Assembly (NCBI GenBank): GCA_015063625.1 | Contig: SVTT01000005.1 | Coordinates: forward strand, 44,979 to 108,978 | From: Oscillospiraceae bacterium | Lineage (GTDB): Bacteria; Bacillota; Clostridia; Oscillospirales; CAG-272 | Length of the DNA stretch: 64,000 nucleotides | Direction: 5' to 3' | Part shown: positions 3,577 through 61,803 of the stretch, piece by piece | Numbering within the stretch: the stretch's first letter is position 1 | Layout: each line of letters begins with the position of its first letter | The notes under the pieces: model-generated | What the model was told of the DNA's origin: nothing | Database searches by the model: none | What the model saw: the letters and a program-made list of their open reading frames with translations, nothing else | Program-made: the position numbers and the translations under genes

Positions 3577-3651
3577 TGGGATGTCGCCAAGCGGTAAGGC
3601 ACCAGACTTTGACTCTGGCATTCGTAGGTTCAAATCCTGCCATCCCAGCCA
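3577..3651 (+). tRNA. tRNA-Gln (anticodon TTG), CCA encoded
   Basis: The cloverleaf was read by hand. Acceptor TGGGATG pairs with CATCCCA. The anticodon stem is CCAGA/TCTGG and the loop is CT-TTG-AC. The T-arm has GGTTCAAATCC. Overall it resembles bacterial tRNA-Gln. Confidence 0.93.
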
Positions 3652-4430: not shown

Positions 4431-4640
4431 ACAGAAAAAAGCACTTGCGTGAGCAAGTGCTTTTTTCAACGAAATCCGCCTTCTGCGGAAGAAATCCACC
4501 TGCGGTGGATGAAATCGCTTCGCGATGAAATCCGACTTCGTCGGGATAGGAGAGGCGGATTTTATTTCATCTGAGGCCGTAGGCTGAAGATTTCATCCGA
4601 GCATGCGAGGATTTCATCGTGCAGAGCACGATTCCATTTT
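4431..4640 (-). repeat. zipper element, copy E (word GATGAAATC(C) / (G)GATTTCATC)
   Basis: A terminator-like hairpin comes first (ACAGAAAAAAGCACTTGC-GTGA-GCAAGTGCTTTTTT, 4431-4466). GAAATC(C) then occurs at 4471, 4491, 4511 and 4527. Its spacers are hairpins: CCGCCTTCTGCGG, CCACCTGCGGTGG, TCGCTTCGCGA, CCGACTTCGTCGG. The complementary word GATTTCATC-type occurs at 4557-4571, 4589 and 4609, with a degenerate copy at 4630. Confidence 0.6.
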
Positions 4641-27416: not shown

Positions 27417-27817
27417 AAAAAAGCACTTGTGGCATAGCGTGATGTCCTTAACGGACAAATCACGCTAACTAAGTTTGCCCTTGCGGGCAAGTGAAGTTTA
27501 CTTCGTAAGTGAAGTTATCCTGCGGATAGTGAAGTTTTGCCTTCGGCAAAGTGGGCAAACTTAACTTCACTGCGAGCTTTGGTGAGCAACTTCACTGTGT
27601 ATCACACAACTTCACTTTTGCGGCAGCAAAAACTTCACTGACAGAAAAAGAGCAAACATACAAGATTTTTGTCTTGCGTGTTTGCTCTTTCTGTTTGTGA
27701 TATGGGTTTGGGCTTAGCCCATAGAGTATTTGACTAGTCAAATGCGATGCTCGCACTTAGCGGTATTTTTCAATTTCTCCGCTAAGGACATCGCCCAATA
27801 GCCGCAAGTGCTTTTTT
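27417..27817. repeat. ~39-bp imperfect inverted repeat (split terminator stem) bracketing a ~325-bp hairpin-rich segment
   Basis: The left arm is AAAAAAGCACTTGTGGCATAGCGTGATGTCCTTAACGG (27417-27454). The right arm is CCGCTAAGGACATCGCCCAATAGCCGCAAGTGCTTTTTT (27779-27817). The outer 17 bp differ at one base and match the stem of the intact terminator at 4435-4466. Confidence 0.7.
27437..27694 (+). repeat. zipper element, copy A (word GTGAAGTT / AACTTCAC)
   Basis: GTGAAGTT occurs at 27491, 27509 and 27529. AACTTCAC occurs at 27563, 27588, 27608 and 27631. Every spacer is self-complementary. The central hairpin is TTTGCC-TTCG-GGCAAA. Capping hairpins lie at 27437-27465 and 27641-27694. Confidence 0.75.
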
Positions 27818-27884: not shown

Positions 27885-27928
27885 GGGGCGCGAAAGATCC
27901 CCCGAGAGCGCGATGCTCTCGGGGGATC
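27885..27928 (-). terminator. terminator hairpin after RNase P RNA
   Basis: Minus strand reads GATCCCCCGAGAGC-ATCGC-GCTCTCGGGGGATC followed by TTTCG. The 14-bp stem is perfect but the T-run is weak. Confidence 0.55.
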
Positions 27929-28285
27929 TGAACCTTGCCGATAAGCCGGGTTCTGTCGTGAACGGCCATCTATCTGCGCCCTGCGTCGCCGCAGGGCTTC
28001 GGGATCGCTCCCGTGCCACCCGGGGGAATACGTCGGGCAAACATCCCCCATACGGTGTTGCTTCGGATAGGGTTTACAGCAAACCTATGTTACCATAGGA
28101 GTGGGTGAGCTCTTACCTCGCCTTTCCATCCTTACCCCTCTCTGAAAGGGGCGGTTTATTTCTGTTGCACTTTCCCGGCAGTCGCCTGCGGCTGACGTTA
28201 TCAGCTATCCTGCCCTTTGAAGCCCGGACTTTCCTCACGGTAATACCTTTCGGCAACATACCGCGCGGCCGTTTGGTAAGGTTAC
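27929..28285 (-). ncRNA. rnpB: RNase P RNA, bacterial type A
   Basis: The minus strand contains GAGGAAAGTCCGGGC, AGTGCAACAGAAATAAACCGCC, GGTAAGGATGGAAAGGCGAGGTAAGAGCTCACC and AGATAGATGGCCGTTCACGACAGAACCCGGCTTATCGG. P1 pairs AACCTTACC with GGCAAGGTT. A TATAAT lies at 28292-28297 (minus). Ends are approximate. Confidence 0.93.
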
Positions 28286-32567: not shown

Positions 32568-32663
32568 AAAGGACCTCCTTTGGCTGTAAAGCTTATCAGC
32601 TTGATTTCCTCTTGTCTATTATTATAGCGAGAGGCGGCGAATTTGTCAATGAAAAAGCACCCC

Positions 32664-32955
32664 TTGGGCGACCTACGGTAAAGCAGGTCGCCCAACTAAG
32701 TTTGCCCATTCGGGCAAGTGAAGTTTACTGCGTAAGTGAAGTTATCCTGCGGATAGTGAAGTTTTGCCTTCGGCAAAGTGGGCAAACTTAACTTCACTTG
32801 TGCGAAGCACAAACATCACTGCAAAGCAACTTCACTTTCACGTTAGTGAAAACTTCACCTATTACCTCCCGAAAAACGCAAATGTAACACACCATACTTG
32901 CAGAGCAAGAAGTGTGAAAAGGAGTACAGGCAAAATGCCCGTACTCCTTTTTGTT
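32664..32955 (+). repeat. zipper element, copy B
   Basis: GTGAAGTT occurs at 32718, 32736 and 32756. AACTTCAC occurs at 32790, 32828 and 32851, and AACATCAC at 32812. The left ~100 nt are almost identical to copy A. The capping hairpins are TTGGGCGACCT..AGGTCGCCCAA (32664-32695) and AAAAGGAGTAC..GTACTCCTTTT (32917-32951). Confidence 0.75.
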
Positions 32956-33142
32956 GTATTGGCGGTTGCCAAAACCTGCTTTATCGCAGGTCGCCGTTGC
33001 GTGGGGCTTTTGGTGTCCTGTGTTTCCGAATCGCTTTTGAGCGCTCTGCCCTTCGGGAATATTTGATCGCAATGCACCGTGCGCGAAAAAAGACCGCCCT
33101 GCCGATATTCGGCAGGGCGGTCTGCTGTAAAATGCGCTCGGA

Positions 33143-41699: not shown

Positions 41700-41810
41700 A
41701 ACCGCATAGAAATCGGGGGTGCTGCCAAACAGGGCGGCTGAGATGGGCAATGCCCAAACCCTTAAACCTGATACGGATAATGCCGGCGTAGGGAAGAGAT
41801 CGAGTATTCT
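41700..41810 (+). ncRNA. TPP (THI-box) riboswitch aptamer
   Basis: CGGGGGTGCTGCC...GGCGGCTGAGA...AACCCTTAAACCTGATACGGATAATGCCGGCGTAGGGAAG matches the THI element consensus (GGGGTGC / CTGAGA / ACCCTTTGAACCTGATCTGGATAATGCCAGCGTAGGGAA). Confidence 0.9.
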
Positions 41811-41846
41811 GTTACCGCACGGAGATTTTCGTGCGGTAATTTTATA
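41811..41846 (+). terminator. riboswitch expression-platform terminator
   Basis: TTACCGCACG-GAGATTTT-CGTGCGGTAA followed by TTTTAT, 18 nt before the thiT RBS. Confidence 0.7.
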
Positions 41847-42691: not shown

Positions 42692-42764
42692 TTCTTTCAT
42701 CGTCCTCTCTTGTCCCTGGCAAAGTGCAAGCATCGCATTTGACCCAACAAATGCAAATGGGCTA

Positions 42765-43217
42765 GGCAAGAGGGAGTGATCTGAACCCGCCCAAAAGCCC
42801 TGATTCCGATAGGGGGCGGCGCCTTCGACGACCCGTTTTTCGGCACCCTCGCGGCACGTTCGGATACGATCAAACCGGTAGGGGTCGGCGCCTTCGACGA
42901 CCCGTCTTTCGGCGCCCTCGGCGACTCATTCTTGGTTGCCGTTCGTTTGTAACGGGCTGCCGTGGGCGTTAGCCCCTACCATGTATGATATCACCCGAGC
43001 TTCGAGGGAACAGATTTTTGCGGCAGCATGGGCGGACATCTGCCACCAAAATCATCTTAAAATCAAGGCTTTGAGGGTCATCCGAGTTTTGAGAGAGCAA
43101 ATGTTTGCAGACGCAAGGGAAATTCTTGCAGTCATATGCGGATATGACAAGGGAATTCCCCGATGCGGATGCGGATATCTGCCTCTCAAAACCGAGTTCA
43201 GATCACTCCCTCTTGCC
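42765..43217. mobile_element. MITE copy 1 (453 bp) with 17-bp terminal inverted repeats, flanked by TA
   Basis: The TIRs are GGCAAGAGGGAGTGATC (42765-42781) and GATCACTCCCTCTTGCC (43201-43217), a perfect pair. TA lies at 42763-42764 and 43218-43219. There is no ORF of its own. Confidence 0.7.
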
Positions 43218-43219
43218 TA

Positions 43220-43493
43220 GGCAAGAGGGAGTGATCCAAACCCGCCCAAAAGCCCTGATTTTCAGCGCTTTCGGCGGCAAGTGCGCTTGTAAAGTCCGCA
43301 CTTGACTTCGCGCCCTTGCCACCAAAATCATCTTAAAATCAAGGCTTTGAGGGTCATTCGAGTTTTGAGAGAGCAAATATTTGCAGACGCAAGGGAAATT
43401 CTTGCAGTCATATACGGATATGACAAGGGAATTCCCCGATGCGGATGCGGATATCTGCCTCTCAAAACCGAGTTCAGATCGCTCCCTCTTGTC
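43220..43493. mobile_element. MITE copy 2 (274 bp), same family, abutting copy 1
   Basis: The TIRs are GGCAAGAGGGAGTGATC (43220-43236) and GATCGCTCCCTCTTGTC (43477-43493). TA flanks lie at 43218-43219 and 43494-43495. The 176-bp core 43318-43493 matches 43042-43217 with 5 substitutions. Confidence 0.7.
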
Positions 43494-43539
43494 TAAATTC
43501 CCTAAAGCTCTGCTTCACTTCGGGGATCCCTACGCAAGC

Positions 43540-43796
43540 ACAGAGAGCAGACACGCAAGACGCTTCGTCTTGCGTGTCTGCTCTTCTGTTAGTGATGTTT
43601 TTGCTATCGCAAAAGTGATGTTATTCGCTTCGCTCATCATGATGTTGCTCGCCAAGGCTCGCAGTGATGTGATGTTTGCCCACTGTGCCGAAGGCACAAC
43701 ATCATTCACGCAGTGAACATCACAAGGCGAAGCCGACATCACTTGCCCATAAGGGCAAACATCGTTTCGCGTGATACTCCGTTAAGAGTATCACGC
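43540..43796 (-). repeat. zipper element, copy D (word GTGATGTT / AACATCAC)
   Basis: Hairpin B is ACAGAGAGCAGACACGCAAGAC-GCTT-CGTCTTGCGTGTCTGCTCTTCTGT (43540-43589). GTGATGTT-type words lie at 43592, 43615, 43639 and 43664. AACATCA(C/T) lies at 43698, 43716 and 43735. Hairpin A is GCGTGATACTC..GAGTATCACGC (43769-43796). Confidence 0.75.
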
Positions 43797-43895
43797 TGTG
43801 CCGTCGGGTCTTTTTATGCTTTTCCCGATCGCTTTTTCTTGACAGAGCGCACAATTTGTGATATCATAATATGAGTTATAAGAAAGGCTGATGCT

Positions 43896-61473: not shown

Positions 61474-61501
61474 ATAAAGCAGGTTTTACAACCGCAAAAA
61501 C

Positions 61502-61794
61502 AAAAGGAGTACGAACATTTGTTTGTACTCTTTTTCACACGCCTTGCCTGCAAGGTATAGTGTGTTACATTATACTTTTGTTTTTTGGGTGGTAAAAGGT
61601 GAAGTTTTCGCTATCGCGAAAGTGAAGTTGCTATGCAGTGAAGTTTGTGCTGCGCACAAGTGAAGTTAAGTTTGCCCACTTTGCCGAAGGCAAAACTTCA
61701 CTATCCGCAGGATAACTTCACTTACGCAGTAAACTTCACTTGCCCCTTGGGGCAAACTTAGTTGGGGCACCTGCAATATCGCAGGTGTCCCAAC
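61502..61794 (-). repeat. zipper element, copy C (inverted orientation)
   Basis: On the plus strand, GTGAAGTT occurs at 61599, 61622, 61638 and 61660, and AACTTCAC at 61694, 61714 and 61732. Its reverse complement aligns with copy B at roughly 85-90% by eye. The capping hairpins lie at 61502-61535 and 61761-61794. Confidence 0.75.
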
Positions 61795-61803
61795 GGGGTT
61801 CCT

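What the first reader, a model, noticed from the sequence alone, without database searches (positions are those of the whole stretch)
43540..43796. Copy D: the repeated word switches to GTGATGTT and the opposite arm switches to AACATCAC
The layout matches copies A-C: hairpin B, four words with hairpin spacers, TTTGCCC..GGGCAAA-type modules, three complementary words, then hairpin A (GCGTGATACTC-CGTTAA-GAGTATCACGC, homologous to the hairpin at 27437). The central base of the 8-mer is T instead of A on one arm. On the other arm the complementary base is A instead of T. The same change recurs across 3-4 repeats per arm, which is arm-to-arm covariation. It is the strongest single argument that the two arms pair, or are read by the same sequence-specific factor on both strands. 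Hairpin B here (43540-43589) is a 22-bp version of the copy A hairpin B.
Basis: seen in the sequence. Interest (0 to 1): 0.75.

Follow-up and report, generated by a model that had tools for sequence, protein, structure and literature searches.

The report
Palindromic Gut-1 repeat with switched words
Copy D is a diverged, transposon-interrupted member of a multi-copy palindromic repeat of gut Clostridia whose left half is the known Gut-1 RNA motif; the two arms of every copy carry matching 8-base words, so the arms are coupled, but what the element does is still unknown.

Summary
At 43540-43796, read on the minus strand, lie hairpin A, three GTGATGT-type words plus a half-word, a central module, five AACATCA-type words and hairpin B. 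This is the layout of copies A-C with the central word base switched on both arms.

The left arm of A-C is the Rfam family Gut-1 (RF01706). D scores 34.8 bits, below the 50-bit cut-off. The 2010 description covers only the left arm.

A word-independent scan found 76 complete matches in gut Clostridia MAGs, in two lineages only (GTGAAGTT, GTGATGTT). No arms are mixed. Four further word types elsewhere also have matched arms. A second long-range helix (a.a', 10-13 nt) covaries in at least eight sequence versions.

So arm coupling is well supported, but AAG versus ATG is essentially one concerted event. Direct repeats on one arm change together too, which simple nested pairing does not require.

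Elements sit at gene 3' ends in either orientation and fold equally well on both strands. Arrays with only a left arm also exist.

Best reading: two inverted Gut-1 word/hairpin arrays whose arms pair as single strands, acting as a 3'-end module. The mechanism is inferred. This is a new variant of a known kind.

The parts
43769..43796 (-). Hairpin A of copy D (5' end of the element in its own orientation), 11-bp perfect stem and 6-nt loop. Homologous to hairpin A of copy A (27439-27465).
   Evidence: (I4)
43743..43763 (-). Half-word L0 plus hairpin h1 (TTGCCC-TTAT-GGGCAA on the minus strand). Segment a = GATGTTTGCCC (plus-strand coordinates 43753-43763).
   Evidence: (I3)
43698..43742 (-). Left arm. 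Words L1 GTGATGTC (43735-43742), L2 GTGATGTT (43716-43723) and L3 ATGATGTT (43698-43705), separated by hairpins GGC-TTC-GCC and CAC-TGC-GTG. Together with L0/h1 this is the part that matches Rfam Gut-1 at 34.8 bits.
43685..43697 (-). Central hairpin h4, GTGCC-TTC-GGCAC.
43664..43681 (-). Segment a' = GGGCAAACATC (43671-43681), complementary to a. It overlaps the tandem words R1a/R1b, AACATCACATCAC (43664-43676).
   Evidence: (I3)
43592..43663 (-). Right arm. Words R2 AACATCAT (43639-43646), R3 AACATCAC (43615-43622) and R4 AACATCAC (43592-43599), with spacer hairpins hR1 (tandem G.A), hR2 and hR3.
43540..43589 (-). Hairpin B, 19-bp perfect and 23 bp with one bulge. In most family members it has an A-run on one side and a T-run on the other (terminator-like in both directions). 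In copy D both runs are short.
   Evidence: (I1)
43494..43539 (-). First part of the 3' module of the type-1 element, up to the TA where the MITEs inserted.
42715..42764 (-). Displaced remainder of copy D's 3' module (TAGCCCAT..TTTG..GGTCAAATGCGATGCTTGCACTTTG). It is colinear with copy A 27725-27795 once the MITEs are removed.
27434..27800 (+). Copy A, word GTGAAGTT/AACTTCAC, a complete type-1 element that includes hairpin B and the 3' module. It starts 38 nt after the FtsK-family gene's stop codon.
32660..32957 (+). Copy B (GTGAAGTT) with type-2 terminal modules and its own terminator. One aberrant word, AACATCAC, at 32812.
61497..61800 (-). Copy C (GTGAAGTT) with type-2 terminal modules. It starts directly after the M50 peptidase gene's stop codon.
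4467..4636 (+). Same architecture with words ATGAAATC / GATTTCAT and a/a' = AAATCCGCCT / AGGCGGATTT. Gut-1 score 45.8 bits.

Best explanation
Shown:
- Copy D is a diverged member of a multi-copy, pseudo-palindromic intergenic repeat family of gut Clostridia (Ruminococcaceae/Oscillospiraceae and relatives).
- The left arm of this family is the published Gut-1 RNA motif.
- Each element is in effect two Gut-1-type arrays in inverted orientation. An array is made of words of the form GUGA-[A/U]-[G/A]-U, separated by short hairpins of variable sequence.
- A transcript entering from either side therefore begins with a GUGAWRU array and continues into the complementary words.

Inferred:
- As a single strand, the arms pair through the 8-nt words. 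This means RNA when transcribed, and possibly DNA during replication.
- The energy minimum is a rod of word helices joined by four-way junctions. A conserved 10-13-nt helix a.a' competes with hairpin h1 and defines a second, crossing or alternative, fold.
- There are more right words than left words, and each word can pair in more than one register, so all words of an element are mutually constrained. The same multi-register pairing would also let quasipalindrome template switching copy a change from one word to the others.
- The whole set can therefore only switch together, as in D.
- The likely role is a bidirectional module at transcript 3' ends, giving termination, protection of the 3' end, or a platform for a reader of the words. 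The family spreads and persists as a repeat.
For: Identity:
- Rfam Gut-1 hits on A-C at 50-56 bits, on D at 34.8 bits and on E at 45.8 bits.
- The RimO encoded next to D is 100% identical to a protein of a Ruminococcaceae MAG.

Arm coupling:
- No element with arms of different type among 76 complete matches found without reference to the words.
- Six word types with matched arms.
- a/a' is complementary over 10-13 nt in at least eight sequence versions, and 99.0% paired over 11 columns in 64 elements.
- L3.R2 is 99.2% paired, with A-U 37, G-C 23, G.U 4 and no mismatch at the first word base.
- Partner-slid controls give 29-51% paired.

Single-strand structure:
- Spacer hairpins keep their shape through double changes.
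- RNA fold z-scores of -10 to -11.
- At the site orthologous to copy A, the differences lie mostly in hairpin loops, while the flanking genes are about 76% identical.

Bidirectional 3'-end role:
- 26 elements in convergent against 6 in divergent intergenic regions.
- 13 sense against 13 antisense in tandem regions.
- A co-oriented stop codon mostly 0-40 nt from hairpin A.
- Sense and antisense fold equally well.
- G.U pairs are rare on both strands.
- The right arm on the opposite strand scores as weak Gut-1.
- Relatives without the element have a plain terminator at the same place.
Against: - No transcript data, so RNA-level function is not shown.
- The promoter scan found no site that would transcribe D in its own orientation, and the consensus scan did not call hairpin B a terminator.
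- The pairing register is unresolved. The comparative optimum (a.a' plus L3.R2) crosses, and the nested rod has 87% pairing for L3.R1b.
- AAG versus ATG is essentially one event, so the statistics over copies overstate independence.
- Left-only arrays (8 of 15 hairpin-spaced GTGAAAT arrays) show that words function, or at least persist, without a complementary arm.
- The restricted word alphabet (W at position 5, R at position 6) is not explained by pairing alone.
Confidence: 0.45

Rival explanations
1. The words are binding sites for a trans-acting reader that recognises GUGAWRU next to a hairpin. The reader could be an RNA-binding or DNA-binding protein, or a complementary RNA. The right arm is simply the same array on the other strand. 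Under this reading arm complementarity is a by-product and the arms need not pair.
For: - Left-only arrays that start right after a co-oriented stop codon.
- Invariant G3, A4 and U7, and a restricted alphabet at positions 5 and 6 across six word types.
- Direct repeats on one arm are identical.
- The right arm scores as Gut-1 on the opposite strand.
Against: - Three word types coexist in this one 64-kb window, so one specific reader cannot explain why words are uniform within an element yet differ between elements.
- A degenerate reader would let single words drift, but only 2 odd words are seen in 76 complete matches.
- The a.a' helix covaries with the h1 stem sequence, which is not part of the word.
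Confidence: 0.22
2. The element is selfish mobile DNA of the REPIN or MITE kind. The inverted arrays of words and the terminal hairpins are recognition sites for a transposase or HUH enzyme encoded elsewhere. Each word type would then match its own enzyme.
For: - High copy number (5 per 64 kb here) and many contig ends inside elements.
- Presence in this genome and in MAG SGB_529, but absence upstream of rimO in four relatives at 82-85% RimO identity.
- Terminal modules assort independently of word type.
- Arrays of several inverted sites resemble Tn7 and Mu ends (my own knowledge).
Against: - No terminal inverted repeats or target duplications at element borders, in contrast to the two true MITEs inside D.
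- No case of left and right arrays separated by cargo in 233 loci.
- None found in viral contigs.
- Copies A and D are kept, with the same word type, at orthologous sites in a genome about 76% identical.
- Compensatory changes in spacer hairpins are not expected for double-stranded binding sites.
Confidence: 0.15
3. The matching of the arms reflects no function of its own. It is kept by DNA-level concerted evolution, in which quasipalindrome template switching during replication copies one arm onto the other. The element is a tolerated terminator-associated palindrome.
For: - The concerted switch of 8-9 words between lineages with homologous spacers.
- Inserted mini-hairpins made of half-words, AAGTTGC-AAA-GCAACTT, in L017 and L068.
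- Right arms collapsed by recombination between words in L028, L046, L092 and L112.
- Symmetry of the two strands and few G.U pairs.
Against: - The element core is far better conserved than the flanking genes at an orthologous site, with changes confined mostly to loops.
- Spacer hairpins, which template switching between arms would not maintain, covary.
- Left-only arrays keep their words without a template arm.
Confidence: 0.13

Closest known systems
Gut-1 RNA motif (Rfam RF01706; Weinberg et al. 2010, PMC2864571)
   Same: The left arm of A-E aligns over the whole 77-position model: three hairpins separated by GUGAAAU-like words. The environment is the same (gut, uncultured Clostridia). The flanks in the authors' own Stockholm file already contain matched right arms.
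   Different: The published motif is only the left arm, and the text says no more than 'human gut only'. Not described there: the right arm, the a.a' helix, the word types, the multi-copy 3'-end location and the terminal modules. D (34.8 bits) and E (45.8 bits) fall below the 50-bit gathering score.
REP/BIME elements and REPINs of proteobacteria
   Same: Multi-copy, extragenic, palindromic doublets, enriched at gene 3' ends and between convergent genes. Several sequence families occur per genome (the rest from my own knowledge).
   Different: No sequence relation and no GTAG-type motif. No RAYT gene was looked for or found. The internal arrays of identical words separated by unrelated hairpins have no counterpart in REPs.
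BOX elements of Streptococcus pneumoniae and Correia elements of Neisseria
   Same: Modular intergenic repeats with a variable number of internal units. They are co-transcribed with neighbouring genes and predicted to form stable RNA structures (my own knowledge).
   Different: BOX units are direct repeats of one 45-nt module, not word-plus-unique-hairpin units with a complementary arm. Correia elements have terminal inverted repeats and TA duplications, which these elements lack.
Transposon ends with several transposase-binding sites (Tn7, Mu)
   Same: Three to four copies of a short site on one side and four to five inverted copies on the other.
   Different: No cargo, no transposase, no terminal repeats and no target duplication. 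The sites are only 8 nt and are separated by structured spacers.

Membership tests
Gut-1 RNA (RF01706) | Score at or above the Rfam gathering score (50 bits) | tested here: not met
   Copy D scores 34.8 bits, with E = 3.8e-5 in a 501-nt search. Copies A, B and C score 55.7, 53.3 and 50.4 bits. Copy E scores 45.8 bits.
Gut-1 RNA (RF01706) | Three consecutive hairpins separated and flanked by GUGAAAU-like words, aligned end to end with the model | tested here: met
   D aligns to model positions 1-77 with all three stems formed apart from two non-standard pairs in the second stem. The words are GAUGUU, GUGAUGU, GUGAUGU and AUGAUGU.
Gut-1 RNA (RF01706) | Homology to undisputed members | tested here: met
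   D is colinear with copy A over the whole element and aligns with 63 other elements. A-C pass the Rfam threshold.
REP/BIME/REPIN-type extragenic palindromes | Many copies per genome, extragenic, preference for gene 3' ends | tested here: met
   Five copies in 64 kb. 26 in convergent against 6 in divergent intergenic regions.
REP/BIME/REPIN-type extragenic palindromes | Cognate RAYT (IS200/IS605-like) transposase flanked by the repeats | not tested
   The proteins of the loci were not screened. Only ten window proteins were scanned, and none is a transposase.
MITE | Terminal inverted repeats and a target-site duplication | tested here: not met
   Element borders (TTAGCGTG... at the 5' end...GCACTT at the 3' end) show no inverted repeat or duplication across copies. 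By contrast, the two insertions at 42765-43217 and 43220-43493 have 22-bp inverted repeats and TA duplications.
Intrinsic terminator | G+C-rich hairpin directly followed by a T-run | tested here: inconclusive
   In most copies hairpin B has an A-run before it and TTTCTGT after it. The consensus scan did not call it in A or D. The type-2 copies B and C end in a classic AAAAGGAGTAC...GTACTCCTTTTT hairpin.
Structured RNA with covariation support | Base pairs kept through changes on both sides, above partner-slid controls | tested here: met
   93-95% of cells are paired, against 29-51% when partners are slid. 20-21 pairs have double changes. Caveat: the sequences are related and the structure was derived from one of them.

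The most novel reading that the evidence does not exclude
The words form an evolvable two-position code (GUGA-W-R-U). The code makes the arms of each element, or of each element type, pair only with their own kind, so that dozens of paralogous elements in one cell do not cross-pair. The excess of right words and the competing a.a' helix would let the RNA shift register or open up, exposing several identical words for type-specific RNA-RNA assembly or for a multivalent reader. Copy D would then be a natural 'recoded' element that documents how such a code switches in a concerted way.
Probability: 0.15. Interest if true: 0.75.

Novelty: new variant of a known kind. Interest (0 to 1): 0.55.

Why it matters
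Gut-1 has been an orphan RNA motif since 2010, with no organism, context or function attached to it.

These data do four things:
- They place it in Ruminococcaceae/Oscillospiraceae-type gut Clostridia.
- They show that the published motif is half of a larger palindromic repeat that sits at transcript ends in either orientation.
- They reveal two long-range complementarities: words against words, and a against a'.
- They show that whole sets of words can be recoded together.

This turns an unexplained motif into something testable. Word-swap chimeras, probing of the two competing folds, and termination or stability reporters in both orientations are now obvious experiments.

It also flags a practical point. 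Rfam's model misses diverged members (D and E) and the whole right arm.

Tried and rejected
- **Strand from folding energy.** Sense against antisense minimum free energy over 73 cores was -69.3 against -68.1 kcal/mol, split 40:33. No signal.
- **Strand from G.U pairs.** 40 sense against 18 antisense. This is only a weak hint, the sequences are not independent, and both counts are low.
- **Own promoter for D.** The scan found no site placed to transcribe D in its own orientation. The only strong site is the rimO promoter at 43839-43867, which points away from D.
- **Phage association.** No hit in viral contigs.
- **Autonomous parent element.** No left and right arrays separated by 0.3-7 kb of cargo in the genome loci. 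The only same-word pair is the two separate window elements A and B, and the pairs in the metagenome loci are unrelated repeats or neighbouring elements.
- **Fixing the pairing register from minor word variants.** L3.R2 is favoured, but the A/T variants at L1 and L2 both go with the same right word R1b, so no single nested register fits.
- **Word-agnostic public scan.** Nothing but G-A-N-N-T is shared by all types, which is too weak for the 14-base minimum. I therefore used a central-motif scan (two types) and a GTGAAAT scan. Most hits of the GTGAAAT scan (about 120 of 136) were unrelated repeats.
- **Literature.** Only Weinberg 2010 mentions Gut-1 or RF01706. Searches for the words returned only primer sequences.
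- **Considered and dropped.** CRISPR array (repeats not spaced by unique non-hairpin spacers, and a complementary arm is present). Integron attC (no core sites, and genes are not co-oriented). Replication-origin iterons (about one element per 13 kb). Coding sequence (spacers change by compensating pairs).

Full report
**1. The observation**

On the plus strand the order is:

- Hairpin B: 19-nt perfect arms, 23 bp with one bulge in the fold.
- Four word positions: GTGATGTT at 43592 and 43615, ATGATGTT at 43639, and the overlapping GTGATGTGATGTT at 43664-43676.
- GATGTTTGCCC at 43671-43681.
- A central hairpin, GTGCC-GAA-GGCAC.
- Three complementary words: AACATCAT at 43698, AACATCAC at 43716, GACATCAC at 43735.
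- The hairpin TTGCCC-ATAA-GGGCAA, whose 3' strand runs on into AACATC. Together these give GGGCAAACATC at 43753-43763.
- Hairpin A at 43769-43796.

Chance does not explain this. GTGATGTT occurs 9 times in the window against 1.49 expected, and four of the nine lie here. GTGAAGTT occurs 20 times against 1.48 expected, all in copies A, B and C. D is inverted relative to A and B, so its own 5'-to-3' direction is the minus strand.

**2. What it is**

Rfam identifies the left arms of A, B and C as Gut-1 RNA, RF01706, at 55.7, 53.3 and 50.4 bits against a cut-off of 50. The left arm of D aligns to the whole model but scores 34.8 bits.

It scores 45.8 bits and uses quite different words, ATGAAATC / GATTTCAT.

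The only paper in the searchable library that mentions Gut-1 is Weinberg et al. 2010 (PMC2864571). It says that the motif occurs only in human gut metagenome sequence and models three hairpins between GUGAAAU words. The flanks in the authors' own alignment file already show right arms:

- GUGAUAUU followed by four AAUAUCAC (BAAZ01000095 and relatives).
- GUGAAAU followed by four AUUUCAC (BAAV01002358).

Other seeds have no right arm.

**3. Census**

To avoid bias towards any word, I scanned one genome per species with the central motif GCCTTCGGCANAGTGGGCAAAC. Almost all are MAGs of Clostridia, Eubacteriales, Oscillospiraceae or Acutalibacteraceae from ruminant and other guts. Many matches lie at contig ends, as expected of a repeat.

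There were 76 matches with full flanks. They fall into two lineages only:

- AAG: GTGAAGTT/AACTTCAC, with centre ...GCAAAGTGGGCAAACTT.
- ATG: GTGATGTT/AACATCAC, with centre ...GCACAGTGGGCAAACAT.

No element has arms of different type. Two carry one odd word, one of them window copy B at 32812. One element, L077, has an AAG half-word L0 on an ATG body.

Other word types turned up as by-catch and in a metagenome scan, all with matched arms: ATGAAATC (window E, L063), GCGATAT (L081), and GTGAAAT (L139, L153, L189, L205, L212).

Over six types the word reads GUGA-[A/U]-[G/A]-U, and all four combinations of the two variable positions are seen.

**4. How strong is the covariation argument?**

The coupling of the arms is real, but it should not be counted per copy.

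AAG and ATG elements share homologous spacers: hR1 TGCGAGC..GCGAGCA, hR3 TTTTGCG..GCAAAA, and h4. The multi-word architecture therefore predates the split, and the A-to-T switch is essentially one concerted change of eight or nine words.

The direct repeats on each arm switched too. One-to-one nested pairing does not require this. Something couples all words of an element. The candidates are pairing in more than one register, a homogenising DNA mechanism, or a common reader.

**5. A second long-range helix**

Segment a consists of half-word L0 plus the 5' strand of hairpin h1. It is complementary to a', which is a copy of the h1 3' strand plus a half-word, placed just after the central hairpin.

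The a/a' helix is 10-13 nt long in at least eight different sequence versions:

- TAAGTTTGCCC
- GATGTTTGCCC
- AAATCCGCCT
- TCAAATCCGTCTT
- GATATAAATCC
- GAAATAAATCC
- TTATATTCGCC
- TGAAATTTGCCC

The versions TAAATCCACCC and GAAATCCACCC are visible by eye in L205 and L212.

The helix excludes h1. In 64 aligned elements it is 99.0% paired over 11 columns.

**6. Structure**

RNA folds of A and D have z-scores of -10 to -11. The energy minimum is a nested rod:

- h1, with word helices L1.R3, L2.R2 and L3.R1.
- L0.R4 as well in copy D.
- Every spacer hairpin protruding at a four-way junction.

Counting pairs on the 64-element alignment gives the following.

| Model | Cells paired |
|---|---|
| Nested rod | 93.2% |
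| a.a' plus the shifted register L3.R2, L2.R3, L1.R4 | 94.9% |
| Controls with partners slid by 1-3 columns | 29-51% |

L3.R2 is the best single word helix, at 99.2% paired. Its first pair is A-U in 37 elements, G-C in 23, G.U in 4 and never mismatched. L3.R1b reaches only 86.9%.

L3.R2 crosses a.a', so the comparative optimum is either a pseudoknot or two alternative states.

Minor variants do not fit one register. An A at the start of L1 in one clade, and of L2 in another, both go with a T in the same right word R1b.

Spacer hairpins h2, h3, hR1, hR2 and hR3 keep pairing through double changes. This argues for selection on a single-stranded form.

**7. Strand and context**

Sense and antisense strands fold equally well: -69.3 against -68.1 kcal/mol over 73 cores, split 40:33. 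G.U pairs are rare on both strands, 40 and 18 of about 700 pairs.

With crude ORF calls for 62 elements:

- 26 lie between convergent genes and 6 between divergent genes.
- In tandem regions, 13 are sense and 13 antisense.
- A co-oriented upstream stop codon is usually 0-40 nt from hairpin A.

In the window:

- A follows an FtsK-family gene and faces rnpB.
- B faces the pyruvate phosphate dikinase gene.
- C follows an M50 peptidase gene and faces a solute-binding protein gene.
- D lies antisense between a TPP-riboswitch-controlled thiamine transporter gene and rimO.

The promoter scan found no site placed to transcribe D in its own orientation. The strong TTGACA-17-TATCAT promoter at 43839-43867 serves rimO.

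The right arm read on the opposite strand scores as weak Gut-1, at 24-26 bits. Either strand therefore offers a GUGAWRU array first and the complementary words second. This fits the lack of orientation bias.

**8. Stability and turnover**

In the closest genome found (MAG SGB_529, flanking genes about 76% identical), an AAG element sits at the same place as copy A, 26 nt after the stop codon. In the arm core, between the first half-word and word R1, there are about six differences, three of them in hairpin loops and the others in the half-word, the linker before it and R1. Most further changes are in hairpin A.

In the same genome, an AACATCAC word followed by a terminator hairpin lies just upstream of the rimO promoter, as at D.

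Four other relatives with 82-85% identical RimO have no element upstream of rimO. They have a plain terminator hairpin in front of the promoter instead.

Right arms collapsed to one word occur in L028, L046, L092 and L112. Insertions of mini-hairpins made of half-words occur in L017 and L068. Terminal modules of two kinds combine freely with both word types.

No element was found in viral contigs. No left and right arrays were found flanking cargo. Element borders show no inverted repeats or target duplications.

**9. Left-only arrays**

Among metagenomic GTGAAAT arrays with hairpin spacers, 7 have two or more ATTTCAC words downstream and 8 have none.

The arrays with none start directly after a co-oriented stop codon (L115, L121, L183, L221). 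They end in GTGAGCG.GGGAGATTGTAAAG. L029 carries such an array (GCGATAT) in the same genome as an ATG palindromic element.

The word array is therefore a unit in its own right, and the palindromic element looks like two such units in inverted orientation.

**10. Interpretation**

Identity is secure. D is a diverged member of an extended, palindromic Gut-1 family.

That the arms are coupled is well supported. That they pair as single strands is the simplest reading of the word matching, the a.a' helix and the spacer covariation. Neither the register nor the molecule (RNA, or DNA during replication) has been shown.

The uniformity of all words within an element is best explained by pairing in more than one register. 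There are four left against five right sites, plus the competing a.a' helix. Quasipalindrome template-switch correction may help; this mechanism is known from my own knowledge of work by Ripley and by Lovett and was not tested here.

The restricted word alphabet and the left-only arrays suggest that something also reads GUGAWRU. I treat this as the main rival or complement.

The location and the symmetry point to a role at transcript 3' ends that works from both sides. This last step is inference.

**11. Novelty**

The left arm is a known family of unknown function. The following are not in the literature I could search:

- The right arm.
- The a.a' helix.
- The set of word types and their concerted switching.
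- The 3'-end, orientation-free context.
- The host taxa.

I file this as a new variant of a known kind, of moderate interest.

Noticed in passing
window 42765-43217 and 43220-43493: Two MITE-like insertions of 453 and 274 bp. Each has 22-bp terminal inverted repeats (GGCAAGAGGGAGTGATCYRAAC / GTTCAGATCRCTCCCTCTTGYC) and is flanked by TA, as in IS630/Tc1-mariner-type elements. They sit side by side in the loop of a hairpin of copy D's 3' module and share a 175-nt internal segment. Removing them restores colinearity of D with A.
   Followed up: partly
window 4467-4636 (+): A fifth element of the same architecture with words ATGAAATC / GATTTCAT and a/a' = AAATCCGCCT / AGGCGGATTT. Gut-1 score 45.8 bits, below the cut-off. 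It is preceded by a terminator-like hairpin at 4436-4466.
   Followed up: partly
window 32812-32819: Copy B (AAG type) has one right-arm word of the ATG kind, AACATCAC. It is an uncompensated exception that would give an A.A mismatch with any left word.
   Followed up: partly
window 27700-27800; window 42715-42764: Type-1 elements continue about 100 nt beyond hairpin B with a conserved module (GGGCTTAGCCCAT..TTTGACTAGTCAAATGCGATGCTCGCACTT). Its role is unknown. Many loci match window 27434-27800 at 70-82% identity.
   Followed up: partly
L017:4522-4716, L068:7712-7923: Spacer hairpins carry inserted mini-hairpins built from half-words, AAGTTGC-AAA-GCAACTT, as if generated by template switching within the element.
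   Followed up: no
L028, L046, L092, L112: Elements whose right arm has collapsed to a single word directly joined to the 3' module. This is consistent with deletion between the direct word repeats.
   Followed up: no
L115, L121, L182, L183, L221 (metagenome loci): Left-only GTGAAAT arrays end in GTGAGCG.GGGAGATTGTAAAG. They are followed by another recurrent sequence (CACCAAAAGGCTCCCC..GGGGAGCTG..GACTGAGGGG), apparently a different repeat family.
   Followed up: no
L063:1600-2128: Two elements of different word type (ATGAAATC, then GTGAAGTT in the opposite orientation) lie tail to tail, sharing one terminator-like hairpin.
   Followed up: no
window 41705-41812, 27926-28284, 3577-3648: Ordinary features: a TPP riboswitch in front of a YuaJ-type thiamine transporter gene, RNase P RNA class A, and a tRNA.
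   Followed up: no
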